A stretch of DNA of 64,000 nucleotides from positions 832,001 through 896,000 of the forward strand of contig CAVQYR010000002.1 of assembly GCA_963718235.1 (NCBI GenBank), in the 5' to 3' direction. A program made the translations under genes and the position numbers. Shown here piece after piece: positions 515-9,230 of this stretch. Source of the stretch: an uncultured Actinomycetota bacterium (GTDB lineage: Bacteria; Actinomycetota; Actinomycetes; JAHEKZ01). The first letter of the stretch is position 1. The number at the start of each line of letters is the position of its first letter. Below the pieces are notes generated by a model that saw only the letters and a program-made list of their open reading frames with translations, was not told where the DNA came from and made no database searches.

Positions 515-1543
515 GTGACGCGATACGGACCCATGTTCGGCCCAGACATCACCTTCCTCGGCGTGCCGCGCTGCACCGTCGACGAGCCGGACACCTACGC
601 CGATGCCGACGTCGTCATCGTCGGGGCGCCCTTCGACGGCGGCACCTCGCACCGACCTGGGACGAGGTTCGGTCCGATGGCCATGCGGGGCACCGACTAC
701 CTCCCCCACGACGGCTCGCGCCCGCACATGGCGATGCGGGTCGATGCGCTCACCGACGACCTGACCGTCGTCGACGCCGGTGACCTCGAGGTGTACTCCG
801 GCGACGTCGTCCGCAGCTGCGCCACGATCGAGCAGGCCGTGAGCACGATCGCCGCAGCCGGCAAGGTGCCCCTCGTCCTGGGTGGTGACCACACGATCAC
901 CTGGCCCGACGTCACCGGTGTGGCGCATGCGTACGGTTTCGGCCGGGTCGCGGTCATCCACTTCGACGCCCACGCCGACACCGGCGACATCGAGTTCGGG
1001 TCGCTGTACGGACACGGTCAGCCGATGCGCAGGCTGATCGAGTCCGGGGCGGCGCGAGGGGACCGGTTCCTGCAGATCGGGTTGCGCGGCTACTGGCCCG
1101 GCCCGGAGACCCTCGACTGGATGGCCGACGAGGGCATGCGGTCGTTCCACATGAGCGAGATCGTCGAGCGCGGTCTCGACGCAGTGCTCGACGAGGCCTT
1201 CTCGATCGCGACCGACGACTGCGACGCGGTGTTCTTGTCCGTGGACATCGACGTCTGCGACCCCGGGCACGCGCCCGGAACCGGCACGCCAGAGCCCGGA
1301 GGGCTCACGGCCCGCCAGCTGCTCGACGCGGTGTCCCGGATCTGCTACGAGCTGCCGGTGGCGGGGATTGACGTGGTCGAGGTCTCCCCGCCGTACGACC
1401 ACGCCGAGATCACCGTGCTGCTCGGCAACCGGGTCGTGCTGGAGTCCTTGGCCGGGCTGGCCCGCCGGGCCCGCGACGCGGAGTCCGGGACCGTGTGGAA
1501 CCGGGCCACGCCCCTGCTGGACGGTCGCGGCACCGCGCGCTGA
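515..1543 (+). CDS. speB: Agmatinase (ureohydrolase family)
   Basis: GGDH, DAHAD and SVDIDVCDPGHAPGTGTP metal-binding motifs; TAGGCT -10 element 7 nt before the GTG. Confidence 0.9.
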   Translation: MTRYGPMFGPDITFLGVPRCTVDEPDTYADADVVIVGAPFDGGTSHRPGTRFGPMAMRGTDYLPHDGSRPHMAMRVDALTDDLTVVDAGDLEVYSGDVVRSCATIEQAVSTIAAAGKVPLVLGGDHTITWPDVTGVAHAYGFGRVAVIHFDAHADTGDIEFGSLYGHGQPMRRLIESGAARGDRFLQIGLRGYWPGPETLDWMADEGMRSFHMSEIVERGLDAVLDEAFSIATDDCDAVFLSVDIDVCDPGHAPGTGTPEPGGLTARQLLDAVSRICYELPVAGIDVVEVSPPYDHAEITVLLGNRVVLESLAGLARRARDAESGTVWNRATPLLDGRGTAR

Positions 1544-1584
1544 GGCCCCCGCGAGGCAGGTCGGCCCCGCGGCTGATCGCACTG

Positions 1585-1599
1585 ATTACTCTGCGTGAC
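1585..1599. promoter_or_regulatory. Candidate BldD-(c-di-GMP) binding box
   Basis: ATTACTCTGCGTGAC matches the consensus NTNACNC(A/T)GNGTNAN at every defined position; intergenic, upstream of a GGDEF-EAL operon. Confidence 0.65.
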
Positions 1600-1731
1600 G
1601 ATGCCTGACCCCTCGTGTCCACCCGTTCGGGCGACCAACTCCGGCCCCCGCGATGGCGACAACTAGTCCCAGGGGGGACCGAGCTACCGGCCGTTCCCAC
1701 CCGTTCGTCGCAACGCAAGGGAAGGGGAGCG

Positions 1732-1836
1732 ATGAAGAAGATCGACAAGGGGACCCTGGTGCGCGGCTCTGCCGCACTCGCAGGTCTCGTCGCCCTGGTC
1801 TCCACGGTCGGAGCCGGGACCAAGTGGATGCACTGA
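1732..1836 (+). CDS. Small signal-peptide-like precursor 1 (34 aa, MKKIDKGTLVRGSAALAGLVALVSTVGAGTKWMH)
   Basis: Purine-rich SD (GAAGGGGAG) before the ATG; paralogous to the next ORF. Confidence 0.8.
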   Translation: MKKIDKGTLVRGSAALAGLVALVSTVGAGTKWMH

Positions 1837-1848
1837 GAGGGGGATGAC

Positions 1849-1953
1849 ATGGAAGACATCAAGACCGCAGTCATCTCTCGGGTCTTGATCAGCGCCGGCA
1901 CGGTCGTGACTCTCGTCTCGGTCGTCGGTGCAGGTCGGAAATGGTGTCACTGA
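1849..1953 (+). CDS. Small signal-peptide-like precursor 2 (34 aa, MEDIKTAVISRVLISAGTVVTLVSVVGAGRKWCH)
   Basis: Translated by hand; SD GAGGGGG at 1837-1843; same length and C-terminal motif as precursor 1; overlaps the start of the next gene. Confidence 0.8.
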   Translation: MEDIKTAVISRVLISAGTVVTLVSVVGAGRKWCH

Positions 1954-4079
1954 CACCACGCCGTGGAGGGGTCGCCGGCTCGCCGGCGGCCCCTCGTCGT
2001 CATGACACGTTGCCGCTCGAGGTCTACATCGCCACGGTGTCGGTCATCGGTGTCTCCCTGCTCGCCCTGACCTGGTGGTTGGTCCCACCTGCCTTGATGT
2101 TCAGCGCCGCGACCTGGACCGATGCCACGTCGCCGGTGACCGTCGTCCTGCTGCTCGGCATCGCGCTCGTGCTCGGTGAGCTGCGCCCGATCCCGATCTC
2201 GCGCGGAGGCGACCTCACCGACTGGATCTCCATCTCGACCACGTTCGCTGTGGCCCTGATCGTCCTGGGGCCGGTCAGTGTCGCCGTCGTCGCGCAGGCC
2301 GCGGCCGTCCTGATCGACGACGTGCGGATGCGCCGCGCGTTCAGCAAGGTGGCGTTCAACGTCGGCCAGTACGTCATCACGATCATCGCGGCCCGGGTGG
2401 TCTACAGCCTGGTCTCGGGCACCCCCTTCGCGGCGCCGGCCACCACCTTCGAACCGACACCGGCAGCACTGCTCGGTGCGATCGCGGCGGGAGCCATGTT
2501 CGTGCTCGTCAACCACGGGCTCGTGTCGACCGTGGTCGCACTCCAGAGCCGGCAGCCGATCCTGGTGATCATGAGCGGTGACATCCGCTTCCAGTCCATG
2601 ACCAACGGGGTCCTGGCGGCGCTCGGTCCCATCGCCGCGGTCGCCGTGCAGCAGCAACCGCTCATGCTGCCCCTCCTCATCGCACCGGTCCTGGCGGTGT
2701 ACCGCAGCGCCGACCTGGCGATCCAGAAGGAGCGACAGGCGCACCACGACACCCTGACCGAGCTGCCGAACCGCGAGCTCTTCCGCGACAAGGCGGAGCG
2801 GGCGCTGGCCGAGTCCCAGCGGTCGGGCGTGCCGCTCGCGGTGATGATGATCGACCTGGACCACTTCAAGGAGATCAACGACACCCTGGGCCACCACATC
2901 GGCGACGACCTGATCCGAGAGGTCGCCACCAGGCTGGACCAGGCGCGTCCCATCGGCTCCACGGTGGCCCGCCTGGGCGGTGACGAGTTCGCCGTCCTGC
3001 TGCCCGACGTACCAGACCTCTCGGTGGCCGAGGAGGTCGCCACGTACATGCTCTCGGTGCTCGGCAAGTCGCTGTCCGCCGGCGGGGTGCGGCTCGTCGT
3101 CCAGGCCAGCATCGGGATCTCGCTGGCGCCCGACCACGGGCACGACGTGCACACCCTGATGAAGAACGCCGACATCGCGTTGTACGAGGCCAAGCGGGAG
3201 CGAGCCAGGTTCTGCGCCTACCAGCCCGACGAGGACGTCCACACGCCGCAGCGGCTCGCGATCCTGGCCGACCTGCGCACCGCCGTGGACGAGGGGCAGC
3301 TCTTCCTGGAGTTCCAGCCCAAGATCGACCTGGCGACCGACACCGTGATGGGTGCGGAGGCCCTGGTGCGGTGGAACCACCCCACGCGGGGCATCATCAG
3401 GCCGGACGACTTCATCCCCCTCGCCGAGAACACCGGGCTGATCACCCCGATCACCTGGTTCGTCATCGAGCGGTCCCTGCAGCAGTGCCGCTACTGGCGT
3501 GACCAGGGCCTGCCCCTCGGGGTGGCGGTGAACCTCTCGGTGCGCCACCTCAGTGACATGAGCCTGCCCGACCGGATCGGCGTCGCCCTCGAACGCTGGG
3601 GTGTGCCGGCGTCGGAGCTCACCGTCGAGGTCACCGAGAGCAGCATCATGACCGACCCCCAGCGCGCGATGGGGGTCATCCGACACCTGCGCCAGGTGGG
3701 GATCGGTGTCGCGATCGACGACTACGGGACCGGCCACGCGTCGTTGACGTACCTCAAGCGTCTCGAGATCGACGAGCTGAAGATCGACAAGTCGTTCATC
3801 ATGCACATGTCCGCCGAGGGCAACGACCCGATCATCGTCCGGTCGACCATCGAGCTGGGGCACAACCTCGGACTCCGGATCGTGGCCGAGGGCGTCGAGG
3901 ACGCCGACACGTTGGGCTGGCTGCGCGAGGTGGGCTGTGACGTCGCCCAGGGCTACCACATGGCCCGACCGATGGCCCCGGAGGCCGTCGAGGAGCTGGC
4001 CCGACGCCGGCTGGGCGAGCCGACGGAGACGCCCGTGCTGTCCAGCGGCGGACGACTGCGCCTGGTGGGAACGGCATGA
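1941..4079 (+). CDS. Membrane-sensor (MASE-like) diguanylate cyclase/phosphodiesterase, GGDEF-EAL
   Basis: ~250-aa multi-TM N-terminus (KVAFNVGQ); DLDHFKEINDTLGH, RLGGDEF, EALVRW, DDYGTG, KIDKSF, AEGVE and QGY intact. Confidence 0.93.
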   Translation: MVSLTPRRGGVAGSPAAPRRHDTLPLEVYIATVSVIGVSLLALTWWLVPPALMFSAATWTDATSPVTVVLLLGIALVLGELRPIPISRGGDLTDWISISTTFAVALIVLGPVSVAVVAQAAAVLIDDVRMRRAFSKVAFNVGQYVITIIAARVVYSLVSGTPFAAPATTFEPTPAALLGAIAAGAMFVLVNHGLVSTVVALQSRQPILVIMSGDIRFQSMTNGVLAALGPIAAVAVQQQPLMLPLLIAPVLAVYRSADLAIQKERQAHHDTLTELPNRELFRDKAERALAESQRSGVPLAVMMIDLDHFKEINDTLGHHIGDDLIREVATRLDQARPIGSTVARLGGDEFAVLLPDVPDLSVAEEVATYMLSVLGKSLSAGGVRLVVQASIGISLAPDHGHDVHTLMKNADIALYEAKRERARFCAYQPDEDVHTPQRLAILADLRTAVDEGQLFLEFQPKIDLATDTVMGAEALVRWNHPTRGIIRPDDFIPLAENTGLITPITWFVIERSLQQCRYWRDQGLPLGVAVNLSVRHLSDMSLPDRIGVALERWGVPASELTVEVTESSIMTDPQRAMGVIRHLRQVGIGVAIDDYGTGHASLTYLKRLEIDELKIDKSFIMHMSAEGNDPIIVRSTIELGHNLGLRIVAEGVEDADTLGWLREVGCDVAQGYHMARPMAPEAVEELARRRLGEPTETPVLSSGGRLRLVGTA

Positions 4080-4089
4080 GGGGGACGAC

Positions 4090-4737
4090 ATGCTGATCCT
4101 CGTGCTGGCGGTTGCGGCTCTCGTGTCGCCCTTCCTGTTCGGTGGCCGGCTGAGTCGGCTGGCGCAGATCCACCTCACTGCCGTGTGGATCCCGGTCGCC
4201 GCGCTGCTGGCTCAGATCGTGATCATCGAGGTCGTTCCGGACGCCTCACGCGTGGTCCTCGAGGCGGTGCACCTGGCCACCTACGTGGCGGCCGGGGTGT
4301 TCGTGGTGCTCAACCGTCGGGTTCCCGGACTCTTGATCATCGCGGTCGGCGCTGCCCTGAACGGGGTGACGATCGCCCTGAACGGCGGAACCCTTCCGGC
4401 CAGTGAGGCCGCCCAGCGACTGGCGGGCATCGAGTCGACCCCCGGTGAGTTCATCAACTCCGCCGCGCTGACCGACCCGGTGCTTCCGATGTTCGGCGAC
4501 ATCTTCGCCTGGCCGGCGCCGCTGCCGCTGGCGAACGTGTTCAGCCTGGGCGATGTGGTCATCGTGTTCGGAGCGTTCTACGGCGCGCAGAAGATCTGCG
4601 GGTCCCGCCTGGTCAAGCCCTGGCAGGAACGGGCAACCGACGAGGCTTCGGCCAGCGGCTCCGACAGCGTTCGCAGCGTGTCGCAGGAGAGCAGTGCGGC
4701 TCCTCACGCTCCAACGGAGTCGACTCCTCTAGTCTGA
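4090..4737 (+). CDS. DUF5317-family membrane protein
   Basis: GGRLSRL...ALNGGTLP...FGDIF...NVFSLGD pattern; SD GAGGGGG; 10 nt after the GGDEF-EAL stop. Confidence 0.8.
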   Translation: MLILVLAVAALVSPFLFGGRLSRLAQIHLTAVWIPVAALLAQIVIIEVVPDASRVVLEAVHLATYVAAGVFVVLNRRVPGLLIIAVGAALNGVTIALNGGTLPASEAAQRLAGIESTPGEFINSAALTDPVLPMFGDIFAWPAPLPLANVFSLGDVVIVFGAFYGAQKICGSRLVKPWQERATDEASASGSDSVRSVSQESSAAPHAPTESTPLV

Positions 4738-4803: not shown

Positions 4804-6024
4804 ATGCGAATCCTGCTCATCGGAGCCGGCGGCGTCGGCTCGGCCGTGGTTCCGATCGCGGCCCGGCGGTCGTTCTTCGAGACGATGGTGGTCGCCGACT
4901 ACGACCGCGCGCGAGCCGATCGGGCCGTGGCGCAGGTCGGGGACCCGCGGTTCGTGGCCGACCAGGTGGACGCGTCGAACGCCGAGTCCGTGGCGGACCT
5001 CGTCCGTTCGCACCGGATCACCCATGTGCTGAACGCGGTCGACCCGCGCTTCGTGCTGCCGATCTTCAACGGCGCACTCGCCGGAGGTTCCGACTACCTC
5101 GACCTGGCCATGTCGCTCTCCTTCCCGCACGCCGACGACCCCTACCACCAGACGGGGGTGAAGCTGGGTGACGAACAGTTCGCCGCCGCCAAGGAGTGGG
5201 AGCAGCACGGCCGCCTCGCGCTCGTCGGCATCGGCGTCGAGCCCGGGCTGTCCGACGTCTTCGCCCGATACGCGGCCGACGAGCTGTTCAGCGAGATCGA
5301 CGAGGCAGGGGTGCGTGACGGCTCCAATCTCGAGGTCGACGGGTACACGTTCGCGCCGTCCTTCTCGATCTGGACGACGATCGAGGAGTGCCTGAACCCA
5401 CCGGTGATCTGGGAGAAGGGCAGGGGATGGTTCACCACCGCCCCCTTCTCCGAGCCGGAGGTGTTCGACTTCCCCGACGGGATCGGACCGGTGGAGTGCG
5501 TGAACGTCGAGCACGAGGAGGTTCTGCTCATCCCACGATGGGTCGACTGCAAGCGGGCGACCTTCAAGTACGGGCTGGGCGAGGACTTCATCAACGTGCT
5601 GCAGGTGCTGCACAAGCTCGGGCTGGACCGCACCCAACCGCTGGCCGTCGGGTCGGTGGAGGTGAGCCCCCGTGACGTGGTGGCTGCCCTCCTGCCCGAC
5701 CCGGCCTCGCTCGGCGACCGGATGAGAGGCAAGACGTGTGCCGGCACGTGGGTCACCGGAACGGGCAAGGACGGGCGGCCGCGCCAGGTGTACCTGTACC
5801 ACGTCGTCGACAACGAGTGGTCGATGCGGGAGTACGGGTCGCAGGCCGTGGTGTGGCAGACAGCAGTGAACCCGGTGATCGCTCTGGAGCTGTTGTCCAA
5901 CGGGTCATGGTCGGGGGCCGGGGTCCTCGGACCGGAGGCCTTCCCGCCCGTCCCGTTCCTGGACGCCCTGGTCGACTACGGCTCACCGTGGGCGATCCGC
6001 GAGGAGACCCCGGCCGCCGAGTAG
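4804..6024 (+). CDS. Saccharopine dehydrogenase / carboxy(nor)spermidine dehydrogenase family oxidoreductase
   Basis: N-terminal GAGGVG Rossmann motif; GIGVEPGLSDVF and HEEV motifs. Confidence 0.85.
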   Translation: MRILLIGAGGVGSAVVPIAARRSFFETMVVADYDRARADRAVAQVGDPRFVADQVDASNAESVADLVRSHRITHVLNAVDPRFVLPIFNGALAGGSDYLDLAMSLSFPHADDPYHQTGVKLGDEQFAAAKEWEQHGRLALVGIGVEPGLSDVFARYAADELFSEIDEAGVRDGSNLEVDGYTFAPSFSIWTTIEECLNPPVIWEKGRGWFTTAPFSEPEVFDFPDGIGPVECVNVEHEEVLLIPRWVDCKRATFKYGLGEDFINVLQVLHKLGLDRTQPLAVGSVEVSPRDVVAALLPDPASLGDRMRGKTCAGTWVTGTGKDGRPRQVYLYHVVDNEWSMREYGSQAVVWQTAVNPVIALELLSNGSWSGAGVLGPEAFPPVPFLDALVDYGSPWAIREETPAAE

Positions 6025-6035
6025 CCGCGCGGCGG

Positions 6036-7394
6036 TCAGCTGCGGGGAGCCGAGCCCTGGTCAGAGAGCAGGTTGTCCAGGACGGGGCCGAGCACCGAGG
6101 CGATGGCCCGCGCCTTGCGCACCTGCTGGCGGGTCCAGGCCGTCTCCTCGGAGTGCGAGCACTCCAGCAGCCCGACTGCGCGGCCCGCGCTGGCCGCGGG
6201 CACCATCATCAGACTGCGCCAGCCGTGGGTGCCCATCCAGGCGATCTCGGCCGGGTCGGCCTCAGGGGCGCTCGCCAGGACCTGCGCCATCTGCATGCTC
6301 GAGAGCACGGCTCGGCTCGTGGCGTAGTCGGCGAGGGGGTAGCGGACCCCTTCGGGCTTCCATCGACCCGGTTCGACCGCCTCGAGCCACTGGCCGGTCG
6401 GGTCGACGAACGACAGGTCCGCCTGGTCGCAGCCGAGCACGTCGGCGACCATGACCATGAGTCGGGCGAGGGTGTCCAGGTCGGCGGCGTCGGACAGCCG
6501 GCCGATGAGGTGCTCCAGCGTGGGCGTGCCGTTGACCTCGGAACCGCGACCACCCACGGCCATGGCCCGTGCGAACGAGGACTCGCACGTGAGCCGCGCC
6601 GCCTCGCTCGCCTCCTCGAACTGCGCGACCGGCATGCCGATCACCCAGCCCTGCGCCTCGGCGACGTCCAGCTCGGCCAGGACGTAGAGGTCCTCCAGGC
6701 TCTCGACGCCCTCGGCGCACACCGCGGCGCCCACCTGGGCCGCGTAGCGCACGATCGCCTCGACCATGGCGGCCTTTCCGGGCTCGGACTCGACCCCGGT
6801 GACCAGCGAGCGGTCGAGCTTGAGCAGGTCGGGCGAGAGCGCCATGACGCGCTGGAGCCCCGCGTACCCCTCGCCGACGTCGTCGACGGCGATCCGGGCA
6901 CCGCGCCCGCGAAGGGCCTCCAGCACGAGGTGGACCCGGTCGGGGTCTTCGACCGCCTCAGTCTCGGTGATCTCGAACTGCAGCCCGGTGAGGTCGAACG
7001 GCAAGACGTTCTGCAACTCGTTGGAGCCGAGGACCGAGGGGCTGACGTTGACCGACAGGAGCACGCCGTCGGGTCGGTTCGCGCCGAGCTGGAGTGCTCG
7101 GTCGACGGCTCGCGCCTCGAGCATGGGTCCGAGCCCGACGCTGTGCGCCATGGTGAACCAACGGTCAGGGGTGAGCGAGGGGCCGCCATGGGTGAACCGG
7201 GCCAGCGCCTCGTAGGACAGGACCCGCCCGGTCGCCAGGCCGAGGATGGGTTGGACGACGATGCTCGGCGAACCGGCGTGCAGGGCCGTGACGACCAGCG
7301 AACGCACCTCGTCGCTGCCCAGGTCGACCGCCGGGTTCGAAGGGGGAGGTGTGGGCAGCGAGGAGCCGGACGTGCTCGTCGTGGTCATCGACAT
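6036..7394 (-). CDS. EAL-GAF c-di-GMP phosphodiesterase
   Basis: YEALARF, SVNVSP, FEITE, VDDVGEGY, KLDRS, AEGVE and QGW motifs; C-terminal GAF-like domain; start chosen by SD (GAGGA). Confidence 0.85.
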   Translation of the reverse strand: MSMTTTSTSGSSLPTPPPSNPAVDLGSDEVRSLVVTALHAGSPSIVVQPILGLATGRVLSYEALARFTHGGPSLTPDRWFTMAHSVGLGPMLEARAVDRALQLGANRPDGVLLSVNVSPSVLGSNELQNVLPFDLTGLQFEITETEAVEDPDRVHLVLEALRGRGARIAVDDVGEGYAGLQRVMALSPDLLKLDRSLVTGVESEPGKAAMVEAIVRYAAQVGAAVCAEGVESLEDLYVLAELDVAEAQGWVIGMPVAQFEEASEAARLTCESSFARAMAVGGRGSEVNGTPTLEHLIGRLSDAADLDTLARLMVMVADVLGCDQADLSFVDPTGQWLEAVEPGRWKPEGVRYPLADYATSRAVLSSMQMAQVLASAPEADPAEIAWMGTHGWRSLMMVPAASAGRAVGLLECSHSEETAWTRQQVRKARAIASVLGPVLDNLLSDQGSAPRS

Positions 7395-7676
7395 CCGCTC
7401 GTCCTCACCCCTCACTGCGCTGGTCTCTGCTCACGCTCTGCCCGGCCCGTGTGCAGCGCCGAGCGCTGACCCGGTCCGGATGCGGAGGTGAGGGCCCCGC
7501 GGGACCCTCATGGGCCTTGGAGTCGGCAGGTGCACGGCCGCGATGTAGCGCCCGACGGGGGAGTGTGCCAGAGGTTACGCCGATCGGGTGAGGCCCGCAC
7601 GACCCTGGACAGGAGCGGTGCCGGGCCCTACCGTGGCGTCGCCCTGCGCCGGACGGCGCGGCGAACGGAGGCAGTG

Positions 7677-9230
7677 ATGGCCACCCAGTCCGAGGCGCCG
7701 ACCAGCGGCGGAGCCGGCGAGAAGGGGCTCAAGAGCGGGGCGATCGGGTTCGTCTCCGGGGTCGTGATCGGGGTGGCGTCGACCGCTCCGGGCTACAGCC
7801 TGGCGGCCGTGCTGGGCCTGGTCGTCTTCGCGGTGGGGTTCCAGGCGCCGGCGATCATGCTCCTGGCGTTCGTGCCCATGCTGTTCATCGCGGCGTCCTA
7901 CTACTACCTGAACCGGGCCGACCCCGACTGCGGAACGACCTTCGCCTGGGTCACCCGGGCCATGGGGCCGTACTGGGGCTGGATGGGTGGCTGGGGGATC
8001 ATCGTCGCCGACATCATCGTCATGGCGAACCTGGCCGAAGTCGCCTCGATCTACACGTTCGACCTGTTCGGCATCGACAGCGAGAGCAAGTGGCTCGTCG
8101 TCGGGCTCGGCGTGGTCTGGATCGCCGTGATGACCTGGATCACCTGGCGCGGCATCGAGCTCTCAGCGCGCACCCAGCTCTTCCTGCTGGGGGCCGAGAT
8201 CGCTGCGCTGGTCCTCTTCGCCGCTGTCGCCTTGTTCCGGGTCTACTTCGGTGACGTCGCCGGGTCGGTCGATCCGTCCTTGTCGTGGCTGAACCCGTTC
8301 GCGATCGAGGGCACCGATGGCCAGAGCGCCCTTCAGGCGATGACGGCTGGGCTGCTGCTGGCCCTGTTCATCTACTGGGGCTGGGACTCCACGGTAACCG
8401 TCAACGAGGAGACCGAGGACTCCGCGGAGGCCCCGGGGCGGGCCGCGATCTGGTCGACCATCATCCTCCTCGGGATCTACGTGATCGTCTCCGTCGCCGC
8501 GATCGCCTATGCGGGACCGGCGTTCCTCGCCCTGGAGGAGAACCAGGGCGACGCCCTGGGGGTGCTGGCCGCCGACGTCTTGGGTCCGCTCAGCTGGGTG
8601 CTGATCATCGCGGTGCTCACCAGTGCGGCCGCTTCTACCCAGACCACGATCCTGCCGACGGCCCGCACGATGCTCTCGATGGGGGCCAAGGGAGCGGTGC
8701 CCAAGTACTGGGCGAGGATCCACCCGCGCTACCTGACGCCCGGACCAGCGACGCTGTGGATGGGTGCCCTGAGCATCATCTGGTACGTCGGCTTGAAGAT
8801 GGTCTCGGAGAACATCCTCTACGACGCAATCGCGGCCCTCGGCCTGATGATCGCTTTCTACTACGGCCTGACCGGGTACGCCGCGGTCATCTACTACCGC
8901 CGTCACCTGTTCGACAGCGTCAAGGCGTTCGTCATGGTCGGGGTCGCGCCGCTGGTCGGGGCGCTGATCCTCACCTGGGCGCTCGTCCGGTCGGCGATCG
9001 ACCTGGCCGACCCGGCCAACTCCGAGTCCGGGACCTCGTGGTTCGGCTACGGTCCGCCGCTGGTCATCGCGGTGGGCTTCATGGTGCTCGGGCTGATCTT
9101 GATGATCGTCATGCGGGTCACGAGCCCGGAGTTCTTCCGGCGCAAGCCCGAGGTCGTGCCCGAGGAGATCGGTCTGTCGGTGTCGAGCCGGGCCGGCGCC
9201 ACCGCTGACCGCAAGGGAGAGGAGTCCTGA
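7677..9230 (+). CDS. APC-family amino acid/polyamine permease
   Basis: GVASTAPGYSLA and FIYWGWD motifs; about 12 TM segments; SD GGAGG. Confidence 0.9.
   Translation: MATQSEAPTSGGAGEKGLKSGAIGFVSGVVIGVASTAPGYSLAAVLGLVVFAVGFQAPAIMLLAFVPMLFIAASYYYLNRADPDCGTTFAWVTRAMGPYWGWMGGWGIIVADIIVMANLAEVASIYTFDLFGIDSESKWLVVGLGVVWIAVMTWITWRGIELSARTQLFLLGAEIAALVLFAAVALFRVYFGDVAGSVDPSLSWLNPFAIEGTDGQSALQAMTAGLLLALFIYWGWDSTVTVNEETEDSAEAPGRAAIWSTIILLGIYVIVSVAAIAYAGPAFLALEENQGDALGVLAADVLGPLSWVLIIAVLTSAAASTQTTILPTARTMLSMGAKGAVPKYWARIHPRYLTPGPATLWMGALSIIWYVGLKMVSENILYDAIAALGLMIAFYYGLTGYAAVIYYRRHLFDSVKAFVMVGVAPLVGALILTWALVRSAIDLADPANSESGTSWFGYGPPLVIAVGFMVLGLILMIVMRVTSPEFFRRKPEVVPEEIGLSVSSRAGATADRKGEES

What the first reader, a model, noticed from the sequence alone, without database searches (positions are those of the whole stretch)
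1732..1953. Two tandem 34-aa micro-genes with a conserved C-terminal core, one missing from the ORF track
Seen: MKKIDKGTLVRGSAALAGLVALVSTVGAGTKWMH and MEDIKTAVISRVLISAGTVVTLVSVVGAGRKWCH have identical length, R at position 11, and 10 of the last 13 residues identical (LVSxVGAGxKWxH). Their DNA differs at many synonymous positions (ctg/ctc, tcc/tcg, gga/ggt, gcc/gca, aag/aaa), which points to selection on the peptide sequence. Each has its own SD. The layout is charged N-region, hydrophobic core, small-residue GAG and a short polar tail, so a signal peptide with almost no cargo. Inference: the mature products are about 5-7 aa ((AG)TKWMH and (AG)RKWCH) and may be two signal variants or an agonist/antagonist pair.
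Basis: partly seen in the sequence, partly recalled or inferred. Interest (0 to 1): 0.87.

Follow-up and report, generated by a model that had tools for sequence, protein, structure and literature searches.

The report
Paired micro-proteins of a c-di-GMP membrane module
Two real, unannotated 34-residue membrane micro-protein genes head a conserved actinobacterial operon for a membrane-bound c-di-GMP enzyme and a protein of unknown function, and probably tune that enzyme rather than act as signal peptides for a tiny secreted cargo.

Summary
Two 34-codon genes sit at 1732-1836 (A) and 1849-1953 (B), each with its own Shine-Dalgarno site. They belong to a family with no Pfam or NCBIfam model.

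- **Distribution:** found in 18 of 19 genomes of the window's family and patchily across the class Actinomycetes (63 of 401 genomes).
- **Selection:** purifying, with median dN/dS 0.12 at dS about 1.
- **Conserved core:** L22, G27-A28-G29, K31 and W32 are invariant. The 0-4 residues after W vary freely.
- **Operon:** micro-gene(s), then a GC hairpin, then a MASE9-like TM-GGDEF-EAL gene, then DUF5317. Of 49 enzyme loci, all 36 with DUF5317 downstream carry a micro-gene. Only 1 of the 13 without it does.

Best reading (about 0.58): A and B are single-pass membrane micro-proteins that act as accessory or regulatory subunits of this c-di-GMP module.

- the tail after W is not conserved;
- the hydrophobic core is sequence-constrained;
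- B has two basic residues just after the putative cleavage site;
- four divergent homologues have Pro at +1.

No binding, topology or processing was shown. Expression evidence is one RNA-library contig.

The parts
1544..1731 (+). Intergenic leader and promoter region upstream of micro-gene A. It holds a block conserved within the family (GTGACAC..TGTGTTCACCC-like, imperfectly palindromic) and a small hairpin.
   Evidence: Alignment A3 of 12 orthologous leaders; consensus fold with weak covariation. No Rfam family and no sigma-70 consensus match. An RNA-library contig covers 1588-1841.
1722..1729 (+). Shine-Dalgarno-like site of micro-gene A (AAGGGGAG)
   Evidence: AAGGGGAGCG-ATG is identical in 14 of the 18 main-locus A copies used; the exceptions are G001, G003, G005 and G010.
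1732..1836 (+). Micro-gene A: 34 aa, A-type (..VGAGTKW..). N flank more positive than C flank.
1837..1844 (+). Shine-Dalgarno-like site of micro-gene B (GAGGGGGA)
1849..1953 (+). Micro-gene B: 34 aa, B-type (..VVGAG[R/K]KW..). C flank as positive as, or more positive than, the N flank.
1966..1995 (+). GC-rich stem-loop of 13 bp with a tetraloop, directly after B. Terminator- or attenuator-like, without a U tract.
   Evidence: z = -3.3 for 1936-2020. A stem of 11-17 bp after the last micro-gene is seen in 17 of 17 module loci with different sequences and in 12 of 13 unlinked paralogue pairs. The simple terminator scan did not call it.
2010..4079 (+). MASE9-like membrane domain (about 240 aa) fused to GGDEF and EAL. 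The start is uncertain: the frame opens at ATG 1941, which overlaps B's end, but conservation begins near TTG 2010.
   Evidence: Pfam GGDEF 159 bits, EAL 245 bits, MASE9 15.4 bits (below the 24.3 cut-off). hhalign against MASE9 domains of HD-GYP proteins gives 98.3% probability, E 1.5e-14, 203 columns. GGDEF, EAL(VR), DDYGTG, KIDKSF and EGVE motifs are read.
4087..4737 (+). DUF5317 membrane protein, about 5 TM helices plus a structured loop. Invariant residues include D138 and D156.
   Evidence: Pfam PF17248 80.8 bits against a cut-off of 25. Alignment A2. AF2 model with pLDDT 89.1 and pTM 0.78. No known fold.

Best explanation
A and B are translated, single-pass membrane micro-proteins of a previously unnamed family. 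The family hallmark is a small-residue-rich transmembrane helix capped by an invariant C-terminal VVGAGxKW. They are the first genes of a conserved operon: micro-gene(s), a terminator-like hairpin, a MASE9-like TM-GGDEF-EAL c-di-GMP enzyme, then DUF5317. Proposed mechanism, by inference: the peptides are made in excess, because they have strong SD sites and the hairpin lets only part of the transcripts run on into the enzyme genes. They insert into the membrane. They then pack, helix against helix and through the interfacial GAGxKW cap, onto the DUF5317 / MASE9 membrane assembly. This sets the enzyme's phosphodiesterase or cyclase output. In other words they would be intramembrane accessory or regulatory subunits, comparable in kind to MgrB or SafA on PhoQ. 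The unlinked extra A/B pairs in some relatives would be additional, separately regulated inputs to the same module. What is shown: the genes, their selection, the operon architecture and the co-occurrence. What is inferred: membrane insertion, binding and any effect on c-di-GMP.
For: Gene reality:
- Intact ORFs with SD sites in all 71 copies extracted (65 distinct; 70 ATG, 1 GTG).
- dN/dS median 0.116 for A (141 usable of 153 pairs, none above 1) and 0.121 for B (103 usable of 120, none above 1).
- All four synonymous codons are used at the invariant V26, G27, A28 and G29 of B.

Family:
- 18 of 19 genomes of the same family.
- 63 of 401 genomes of the class.
- 79 representatives at E<=1e-3.
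- 34 loci in named records, including Kineosporia and Aquipuribacter.

Operon link:
- In f1 the order GAF, agmatinase, A, B, TM-GGDEF-EAL, DUF5317 is syntenic.
- By my reading, the best peptide hit lies within about 400 nt upstream of the TM-domain gene in 33 of 44 non-f1 genomes with a profile hit.
- Among 49 unique enzyme loci, 36 of 36 with DUF5317 downstream carry at least one micro-gene (11 carry two), against 1 of 13 without it. That one has DUF5317 divergently adjacent.
- Of the 20 loci fetched through the enzyme's TM domain alone, the split is 9 of 9 against 0 of 11.
- In G208 the module is split, and the micro-gene stays with DUF5317.

Other support:
- Hairpin present in 17 of 17 module loci.
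- The hydrophobic core is sequence-conserved and rich in G, A, S and T.
- The MASE9 paper (passages read) suggests that MASE9 binds its ligand within the membrane.
- An RNA-library contig of 258 nt lies on 1588-1841 with 1 differing letter.
Against: - No experiment or model shows binding, membrane insertion or any effect on c-di-GMP.
- MASE9 enzymes work without such peptides elsewhere. The TM domain is found in 159 of 401 genomes and the micro-gene in only 63.
- DUF5317 next to MASE9-HD-GYP genes has no micro-gene (0 of 12 loci).
- Extra A/B pairs in f1 sit in unrelated contexts. The peptides may therefore have a function of their own.
- The n-h-c layout with V at -3 and A at -1 also fits a cleavable signal peptide.
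- The co-occurrence counts rest on a motif pattern that I widened after seeing divergent copies, on related genomes that are not independent, and partly on loci that were chosen through the peptide.
- The RNA contig may come from DNA carried over in the library.
Confidence: 0.58

Rival explanations
1. Exported pro-peptides. The 28 N-terminal residues are a Sec-type signal peptide cleaved after VGA. This releases GxKW(+0-4 aa) peptides that act as extracellular signals sensed by the MASE9 or DUF5317 membrane proteins.
For: - Canonical positive n-region, hydrophobic h-region and a small-residue c-region, with V/I at -3 and an invariant A at -1.
- K31 and W32 are invariant in the would-be product.
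- The genes sit next to a membrane sensor.
- By recall, Phr-type pentapeptides derive from the C-termini of precursors of about 40 aa.
Against: - The tail after W varies from 0 to 4 residues, and many members end at W.
- The h-region is under strong sequence constraint.
- B has K/R-K at +2/+3, and its C flank is at least as positive as its N flank (N<C in 18 of 21, never N>C).
- Pro at +1 in four divergent homologues (L144, L150, L151, L152).
- No processing or export genes are conserved nearby.
Confidence: 0.13
2. A membrane-active two-peptide toxin or leaderless bacteriocin-like pair, or a type I-like toxin. The nearby membrane proteins, for example DUF5317, would give self-protection.
For: - Two adjacent cationic hydrophobic peptides without a leader.
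- Tandem amplification in some genomes: three A-B pairs within 1.3 kb in G011, and 12 matches in that genome.
- Each pair ends with its own terminator-like hairpin.
Against: - The pair sits at a syntenic core location in 18 of 19 family genomes under purifying selection.
- An uninterrupted apolar stretch of about 20 residues suits a TM anchor better than an amphipathic bacteriocin.
- Among the ORFs I listed by eye, no transporter or immunity gene recurred beside the unlinked pairs (not searched against Pfam).
- The link to a c-di-GMP enzyme is strict.
Confidence: 0.08
3. Cis-acting leader ORFs. Their translation only controls formation of the downstream hairpin and so the expression of the GGDEF-EAL gene. 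The peptides themselves have no function.
For: The micro-genes lie directly upstream of the enzyme gene and are followed by a strong conserved hairpin. The enzyme frame's first ATG (1941) overlaps B's end.
Against: - The amino-acid sequence, not just the ORF, is conserved across families at saturated dS.
- Unlinked paralogue pairs keep the same peptide motifs without any enzyme gene downstream.
- The hairpin starts 13 nt after B's stop, and no alternative pairing with the ORF was seen.
Confidence: 0.05

Closest known systems
Small single-pass membrane regulators of membrane sensors (MgrB and SafA on PhoQ, MzrA on EnvZ; recalled, not searched here)
   Same: Under 50 aa, one TM helix, encoded as separate genes with their own SD. 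The proposed action is helix-to-helix contact with a larger membrane signalling protein.
   Different: No sequence similarity was tested or expected. The target would be a c-di-GMP enzyme with a MASE9-like domain plus DUF5317, not a histidine kinase. The hallmark is a C-terminal VVGAGxKW. Often present as an ordered A/B pair. Binding is not shown.
MASE9-HD-GYP phosphodiesterases with an adjacent DUF5317 (seen here in L157, L159, L161 and L165; MASE9 defined in bioRxiv 10.1101/2021.11.05.467447, passages read)
   Same: Homologous membrane sensor domain (hhalign 98.3%) and a DUF5317 neighbour.
   Different: The output is HD-GYP, not GGDEF-EAL. The DUF5317 belongs to a more distant subgroup (30-38% identity over partial matches in 6 of 12 loci). 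No micro-gene was found in any of the 12 loci.
RmdB of Streptomyces venezuelae (membrane-bound GGDEF-EAL phosphodiesterase; bioRxiv 10.1101/2020.04.24.060822, passages read)
   Same: Same architecture and size: N-terminal membrane region of about 240 aa, then GGDEF and EAL. RmdB is 704 aa; the protein here is about 690-712 aa.
   Different: Orthology was not tested, because no RmdB sequence was available. TM-GGDEF-EAL genes at 30-39% identity in large-genome family f3 (22 of 22 genomes) have neither DUF5317 (0 of 22) nor a micro-gene.
Phr / SHP / XIP-type peptide pheromone precursors of Firmicutes (recalled)
   Same: Short precursors with a positive N-terminus, a hydrophobic stretch and a conserved C-terminal part. 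XIP-type peptides contain Trp.
   Different: Those have cytoplasmic RRNPP or Rgg receptors and dedicated export and processing. Here the neighbours are membrane proteins, the tail is not conserved, and the hydrophobic core is constrained.
Paired small membrane proteins with opposite charge bias (SMR pairs such as EbrAB; recalled)
   Same: Within family f1, A has the more positive N flank (19 of 22) and B the more positive C flank (18 of 21). This is the signature of antiparallel partners.
   Different: These are single-span peptides, not four-helix transporters. Outside f1, B is charge-balanced or N-positive (read), so the signal is weak.

Membership tests
Small single-pass membrane regulatory proteins (functional kind, not a sequence family) | Translated ORF under 50 aa with one hydrophobic span long enough to cross the membrane | tested here: met
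   33-36 aa with an apolar stretch of 18-22 residues. Purifying selection. Translation itself was not measured.
Small single-pass membrane regulatory proteins (functional kind, not a sequence family) | Physical binding to, and modulation of, a larger membrane protein | not testable with these tools
   Only genomic linkage is shown. This needs two-hybrid, co-purification and activity assays.
Sec-type cleavable signal peptide / exported pro-peptide | n-h-c layout with small residues at -3 and -1 | tested here: met
   V/I at -3 in at least 90% of rows and A at -1 invariant in alignment A1.
Sec-type cleavable signal peptide / exported pro-peptide | A site compatible with type I signal peptidase and export: no Pro at +1 and no cluster of positive charges just after the site (rule recalled) | tested here: not met
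   B-type has K/R-K at +2/+3 in all 21 B rows of A1. Pro at +1 in L144, L150, L151 and L152. A-type alone would pass.
Sec-type cleavable signal peptide / exported pro-peptide | A conserved mature product | tested here: not met
   Only G-x-K-W is kept. 0-4 variable residues follow.
Any curated protein family (Pfam-A, NCBIfam) | Match to a family model | tested here: not met
   0 families for either peptide at E<=1. The Atlas returns only unnamed clusters of 32-34 aa.
MASE9 (PF20972), for the neighbouring enzyme's membrane domain | Score above Pfam's gathering threshold | tested here: not met
   15.4 bits against a cut-off of 24.3, E 0.018.
MASE9 (PF20972), for the neighbouring enzyme's membrane domain | Profile-level homology to bona fide MASE9 domains | tested here: met
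   hhalign of A4 against A5 gives probability 98.3%, E 1.5e-14 over 203 columns. A5 holds 4 HD-GYP proteins, 2 of them above the MASE9 cut-off.
DUF5317 (PF17248), for the downstream gene | Score above Pfam's gathering threshold | tested here: met
   80.8 bits against a cut-off of 25.
Two-peptide / leaderless bacteriocins | Adjacent peptide genes plus dedicated immunity or transport genes, with sporadic strain-level distribution | tested here: inconclusive
   Adjacent cationic peptides: yes. Among the ORFs listed beside the 12 unlinked pair loci, no transporter or immunity gene recurred by eye (not searched against Pfam). The distribution is syntenic and family-wide, not sporadic.

The most novel reading that the evidence does not exclude
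The micro-proteins are the intramembrane ligands or substrates of the module. DUF5317 would be a previously unrecognised intramembrane enzyme: it has two invariant Asp in LGD and xGD motifs, invariant Asn, His and Ser, and no known fold. It would bind the peptides, or cleave them at the invariant GAG, and the product would switch the MASE9 sensor and so c-di-GMP turnover. The A/B pair, with opposite charge bias in this family, would present the motif on both faces of the membrane.
Probability: 0.08. Interest if true: 0.85.

Novelty: new variant of a known kind. Interest (0 to 1): 0.62.

Why it matters
MASE-type membrane sensor domains of c-di-GMP enzymes have no known ligands, and DUF5317 has no known function. 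A search for 'DUF5317' found 0 papers.

A strictly co-occurring micro-protein gives both a concrete, testable partner. It can be studied in culturable carriers such as Kineosporia and Aquipuribacter. It also adds a conserved family to the few small membrane proteins tied to second-messenger signalling.

It is a clear case of real genes that standard annotation and family libraries miss. My searches for small membrane proteins linked to c-di-GMP enzymes listed nothing on such a system, judging from titles and abstract starts.

Tried and rejected
- **Complex prediction** (collected), with three chains: the MASE9-like domain (A4), DUF5317 residues 1-195 (A2) and peptide A (A1) as partner. Verdict 'no answer'. 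Scores 0.20 and 0.11 against a mark of 0.32; controls were not run. This is neither support nor evidence against binding.
- **Fold of DUF5317.** Foldseek against the PDB found no match at E<=1e-3. VIA-align wide gave a best Z of 7.0 on a 47-residue helical hairpin only. A PDB sequence profile gave 0 hits at E<=1. The idea that DUF5317 is a known type of intramembrane aspartyl protease therefore has no support, but it is not excluded.
- **Rfam on 1450-2150.** Only two sub-threshold matches (CRISPR-DR20 19.5 bits, BjrC68 19 bits), so no known riboswitch or sRNA.
- **Promoter and terminator consensus scan of 1400-2300.** 0 and 0. The hairpin lacks a U tract.
- **Protein Atlas**. Only unnamed clusters, with scores of 0.89-0.90.
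- **Literature.** 'DUF5317' found 0 papers. 'MASE9' found 2 papers, one relevant. The small-membrane-protein / c-di-GMP term sets listed 6 and 10 papers, none on this system by title or abstract start. Paper supplements were not opened; Figure S5 of the MASE9 preprint, which I could not see, might show neighbouring genes.
- **Split-gene idea.** I considered that the micro-protein replaces a missing helix of MASE9 or DUF5317. The hhalign match starts at the domain's N-terminus, and DUF5317 lengths are similar in both subgroups, so I dropped it.
- **BldD box.** A BldD-box reading of the leader palindrome rests on a recalled consensus with 2 mismatches, so I dropped it.
- **Sequencing runs.** The best holders share at most 0.36 of the words. 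DNA contigs of X1 and X2 cover parts of 1845-2600 at 99-100% identity. Uncovered parts mean nothing.
- **A correction.** In one search the A-gene of G010 was taken one codon out of register, which gave 7 spurious pairs above 1. One search repeats the count correctly.

**Unpublished genomes.** The tallies include G025, G033, G042, G048, G050, G054, G060, G270, G308 and G372. No alignment or sequence claim uses them. In my 33-of-44 adjacency count, G054 is among the 11 counted as not adjacent. The other ten are:
- six hits inside long frames (G031, G071, G098, G120, G168, G262);
- G043, where the hit is at a contig end;
- G208, where the module is split;
- G236, where the hit is on another contig;
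- G326, where the TM hit was not listed.

Full report
**What is there.** The window is high-GC actinobacterial DNA. It lies in G000, a genome of 3.17 Mb in 2 contigs. The closest named records are uncultured Actinomycetes genomes assembled from metagenomes. At the stated place there are two 34-codon ORFs on the + strand: A at 1732-1836 and B at 1849-1953.
- Each is preceded by a purine-rich SD-like site: AAGGGGAG before A and GAGGGGGA before B.
The lengths are equal, both have R11, and 10 of the last 13 residues are identical.
- A and B share 14 of 34 residues but only 50 of 102 bases, and 8 of the 14 shared residues use different codons.
- Neither peptide matches any Pfam or NCBIfam model at E<=1.
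- The genome holds only these two copies.

**They are real genes of a conserved family.**
- A search with peptide A found matches in 18 of 19 other genomes of the same family (f1), usually as a tandem pair.
- From those loci I extracted 71 copies (65 distinct). All are 33-36 aa, 70 start with ATG and 1 with GTG, and they have SD-like sites. Where paired, they are always ordered A-type (..VVGAG[T/V/Q/I]KW..) then B-type (..VVGAG[K/R]KW..).
- An alignment of 43 copies has M1, L22, G27, A28, G29, K31 and W32 invariant and V26 in at least 90% of rows.
- Orthologue comparisons give a median dN/dS of 0.116 for A (141 usable of 153 pairs, dS 1.14, none above 1). For B the median is 0.121 (103 usable of 120 pairs, dS 1.0, none above 1).
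- At the invariant V26, G27, A28 and G29 of B, all four synonymous codons occur.
- A profile of the alignment finds the family in 63 of 401 genomes sampled across the class (f1 18 of 19, f17 13 of 22, f25 8 of 12).
- It finds 79 cluster representatives at E<=1e-3 among 1.84 billion proteins. All of them end in ..GAGxKW plus 0-3 residues, or a near variant.
- It finds 34 loci in named genome records. These are mostly uncultured Actinomycetes, Nanopelagicales and Sporichthyaceae. They also include two Kineosporia strains, an Aquipuribacter strain and a record titled Jannaschia sp. R86511.

**The context is the main result.** In f1 the locus is syntenic: GAF protein, agmatinase, A, B, TM-GGDEF-EAL, DUF5317, saccharopine-dehydrogenase-family protein, EAL-GAF protein. 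In other families the flanks change, but a core stays: micro-gene(s), TM-GGDEF-EAL, DUF5317.
- The core is present in 13 of 18 loci from named records and in 18 of 20 loci from other genera.
- By my reading together, the best peptide hit lies within about 400 nt upstream of the enzyme's membrane domain in 33 of the 44 non-f1 genomes with a profile hit. The other 11 are listed under Tried and rejected.
- The enzyme's membrane domain alone is commoner, at 159 of 401 genomes. So is DUF5317, at 183 of 401.
- I therefore fetched 20 loci through the membrane domain alone. Divergent micro-genes that the profile had missed appeared upstream (..VGGAGWKF..LGAPVKWR..AAPGKWH) exactly where DUF5317 follows the enzyme gene.
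- Counting all 49 unique enzyme loci, 36 of 36 with DUF5317 downstream have at least one micro-gene, and 11 have two. Of the 13 without DUF5317 downstream, 1 has a micro-gene, and in that locus DUF5317 lies divergently next door.
- Within the 20 loci fetched through the enzyme, the split is 9 of 9 against 0 of 11.
- In G208 the module is split, and the micro-gene stays with DUF5317.

There are caveats on these counts. My detector is a motif pattern that I widened after seeing the divergent copies. Many loci were chosen through the peptide. Related genomes are not independent. As a control, the same pattern matched 3 ORF ends, none of them hydrophobic, in 12 other loci of 9 kb each.

**The neighbours.**
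- *The enzyme.* Its GGDEF and EAL domains carry the usual catalytic motifs (GGDEF, EALVR, DDYGTG, EGVE; read; Pfam). Its membrane domain scores below Pfam's MASE9 cut-off (15.4 against 24.3 bits). It is nevertheless homologous at profile level to MASE9 domains of HD-GYP proteins (98.3% probability, E 1.5e-14).
- *Where those HD-GYP proteins came from.* I found them next to a second subgroup of DUF5317. DUF5317 therefore looks like a general companion of MASE9-type c-di-GMP phosphodiesterases. None of those 12 loci had a micro-gene.
- *MASE9 in the literature.* The preprint that defined MASE9 suggests that its ligand binds within the membrane (passages read).
- *DUF5317.* It folds confidently (pLDDT 89.1) into about five TM helices plus a structured loop. 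Q43, H62, Y66, N76, N92, N99, N124, S125, D138, S153 and D156 are invariant. It matches no solved fold, and no paper mentions it.

**Expression architecture.**
- A 13-bp GC stem with a tetraloop follows B at 1966-1995.
- A comparable stem, built from different sequences, follows the last micro-gene in 17 of 17 module loci. It also follows 12 of 13 unlinked paralogue pairs.
- It has no U tract and was not called by the simple scan.
- I read it as a terminator or attenuator that makes the micro-genes a largely self-contained, highly expressed unit with limited read-through into the enzyme genes. This is an inference.
- Protein conservation of the enzyme begins near TTG 2010, just after the hairpin, although the frame opens at ATG 1941, which overlaps B.
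- The leader upstream of A is conserved within f1 but matches no Rfam family.
- One 258-nt contig from a sediment metatranscriptome library lies on 1588-1841, covering the leader and all of A, with a single differing letter. This is a weak hint of transcription, because such libraries can contain DNA.

**Signal peptide or membrane protein?** The n-h-c layout with V at -3 and A at -1 is real. Five things speak against a tiny secreted cargo.
- Only G-x-K-W is conserved after the putative site, and the tail varies from 0 to 4 residues.
- The hydrophobic core is nearly invariant among orthologues at saturated dS. It is rich in G, A, S and T, as in helices that pack tightly.
- B has K/R-K at +2/+3.
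- B's C flank is never less positive than its N flank (N<C in 18 of 21 rows, equal in 3). A is the reverse, with N>C in 19 of 22 rows and equal in 3.
- Four divergent homologues have Pro at +1.

The rules on positive charges and on Pro at +1 are recalled textbook knowledge, not tested here. The opposite charge bias of A and B within f1 hints at opposite orientations. Outside f1, B is merely balanced or N-positive (read), so I give this little weight.

**Verdict.** These are members of an unnamed micro-protein family that is tied to a MASE9-like GGDEF-EAL enzyme and DUF5317. The A/B duplication recurs in several families, and in 10 of the 11 two-gene module loci the second peptide has K or R at position x.

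The most likely function is an intramembrane accessory or regulatory subunit of this c-di-GMP module (about 0.58). The rivals are an exported GxKW peptide (0.13), a membrane-active toxin-like pair (0.08) and purely cis-acting leader ORFs (0.05). Binding, topology, processing and any effect on c-di-GMP remain untested. The single complex prediction gave no answer and is reported only under Tried and rejected.

Noticed in passing
L157, L159, L161 and L165; window 4087-4737: DUF5317 (PF17248) appears to be a general genomic companion of MASE9-type c-di-GMP phosphodiesterases. A second DUF5317 subgroup lies next to pairs of HD-GYP (HD_5) genes. The first gene of each pair carries a MASE9 domain. 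The family also 'rings' in Thermotoga maritima and Thermus thermophilus among the control genomes.
   Followed up: partly
window 515-1543, 4804-6024, 7677-9230; also 3-422 and 6036-7415 (- strand): In family f1 the c-di-GMP module is embedded among an agmatinase, a saccharopine-dehydrogenase-family protein and an amino-acid / polyamine-type permease. A GAF protein and an EAL-GAF protein are also present. A link between polyamine metabolism and c-di-GMP signalling is conceivable. The agmatinase is not kept outside f1.
   Followed up: partly
window about 1600-1660 (alignment A3, columns 80-110): The leader of micro-gene A holds a block conserved in f1 (consensus GTGACACT.TGTGTTCACCC). It looks like an imperfect palindrome and could be a regulator binding site. 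Further downstream, a CGTCGC stretch can pair with the GCGATG start region.
   Followed up: no
G011:C70:16095-17350 (L034); G017:C8:43358-44140 (L035): Some relatives carry tandem arrays of the micro-genes. G011 has three A-B pairs within 1.3 kb and 12 matches in all, in contexts unrelated to c-di-GMP genes. Each pair has its own terminator-like hairpin. One paralogue B copy (G013:C115, L045) is truncated.
   Followed up: partly
L108 (NZ_JAXHCD010000001.1, 4.68 Mb contig): A record titled 'Jannaschia sp. R86511' carries the complete actinobacterial module. Its micro-protein is nearly the same as that of Aquipuribacter sp. MA13-6. Jannaschia is, by recall, an alphaproteobacterial genus, so the organism name of that record may be wrong.
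   Followed up: no
G010:C1:762644-770000 (L051): In G010 the orthologous enzyme, DUF5317 and saccharopine-dehydrogenase genes are each broken into several tblastn pieces, and B runs into a 108-aa frame. This looks like frequent frameshift errors in that assembly rather than gene decay.
   Followed up: no
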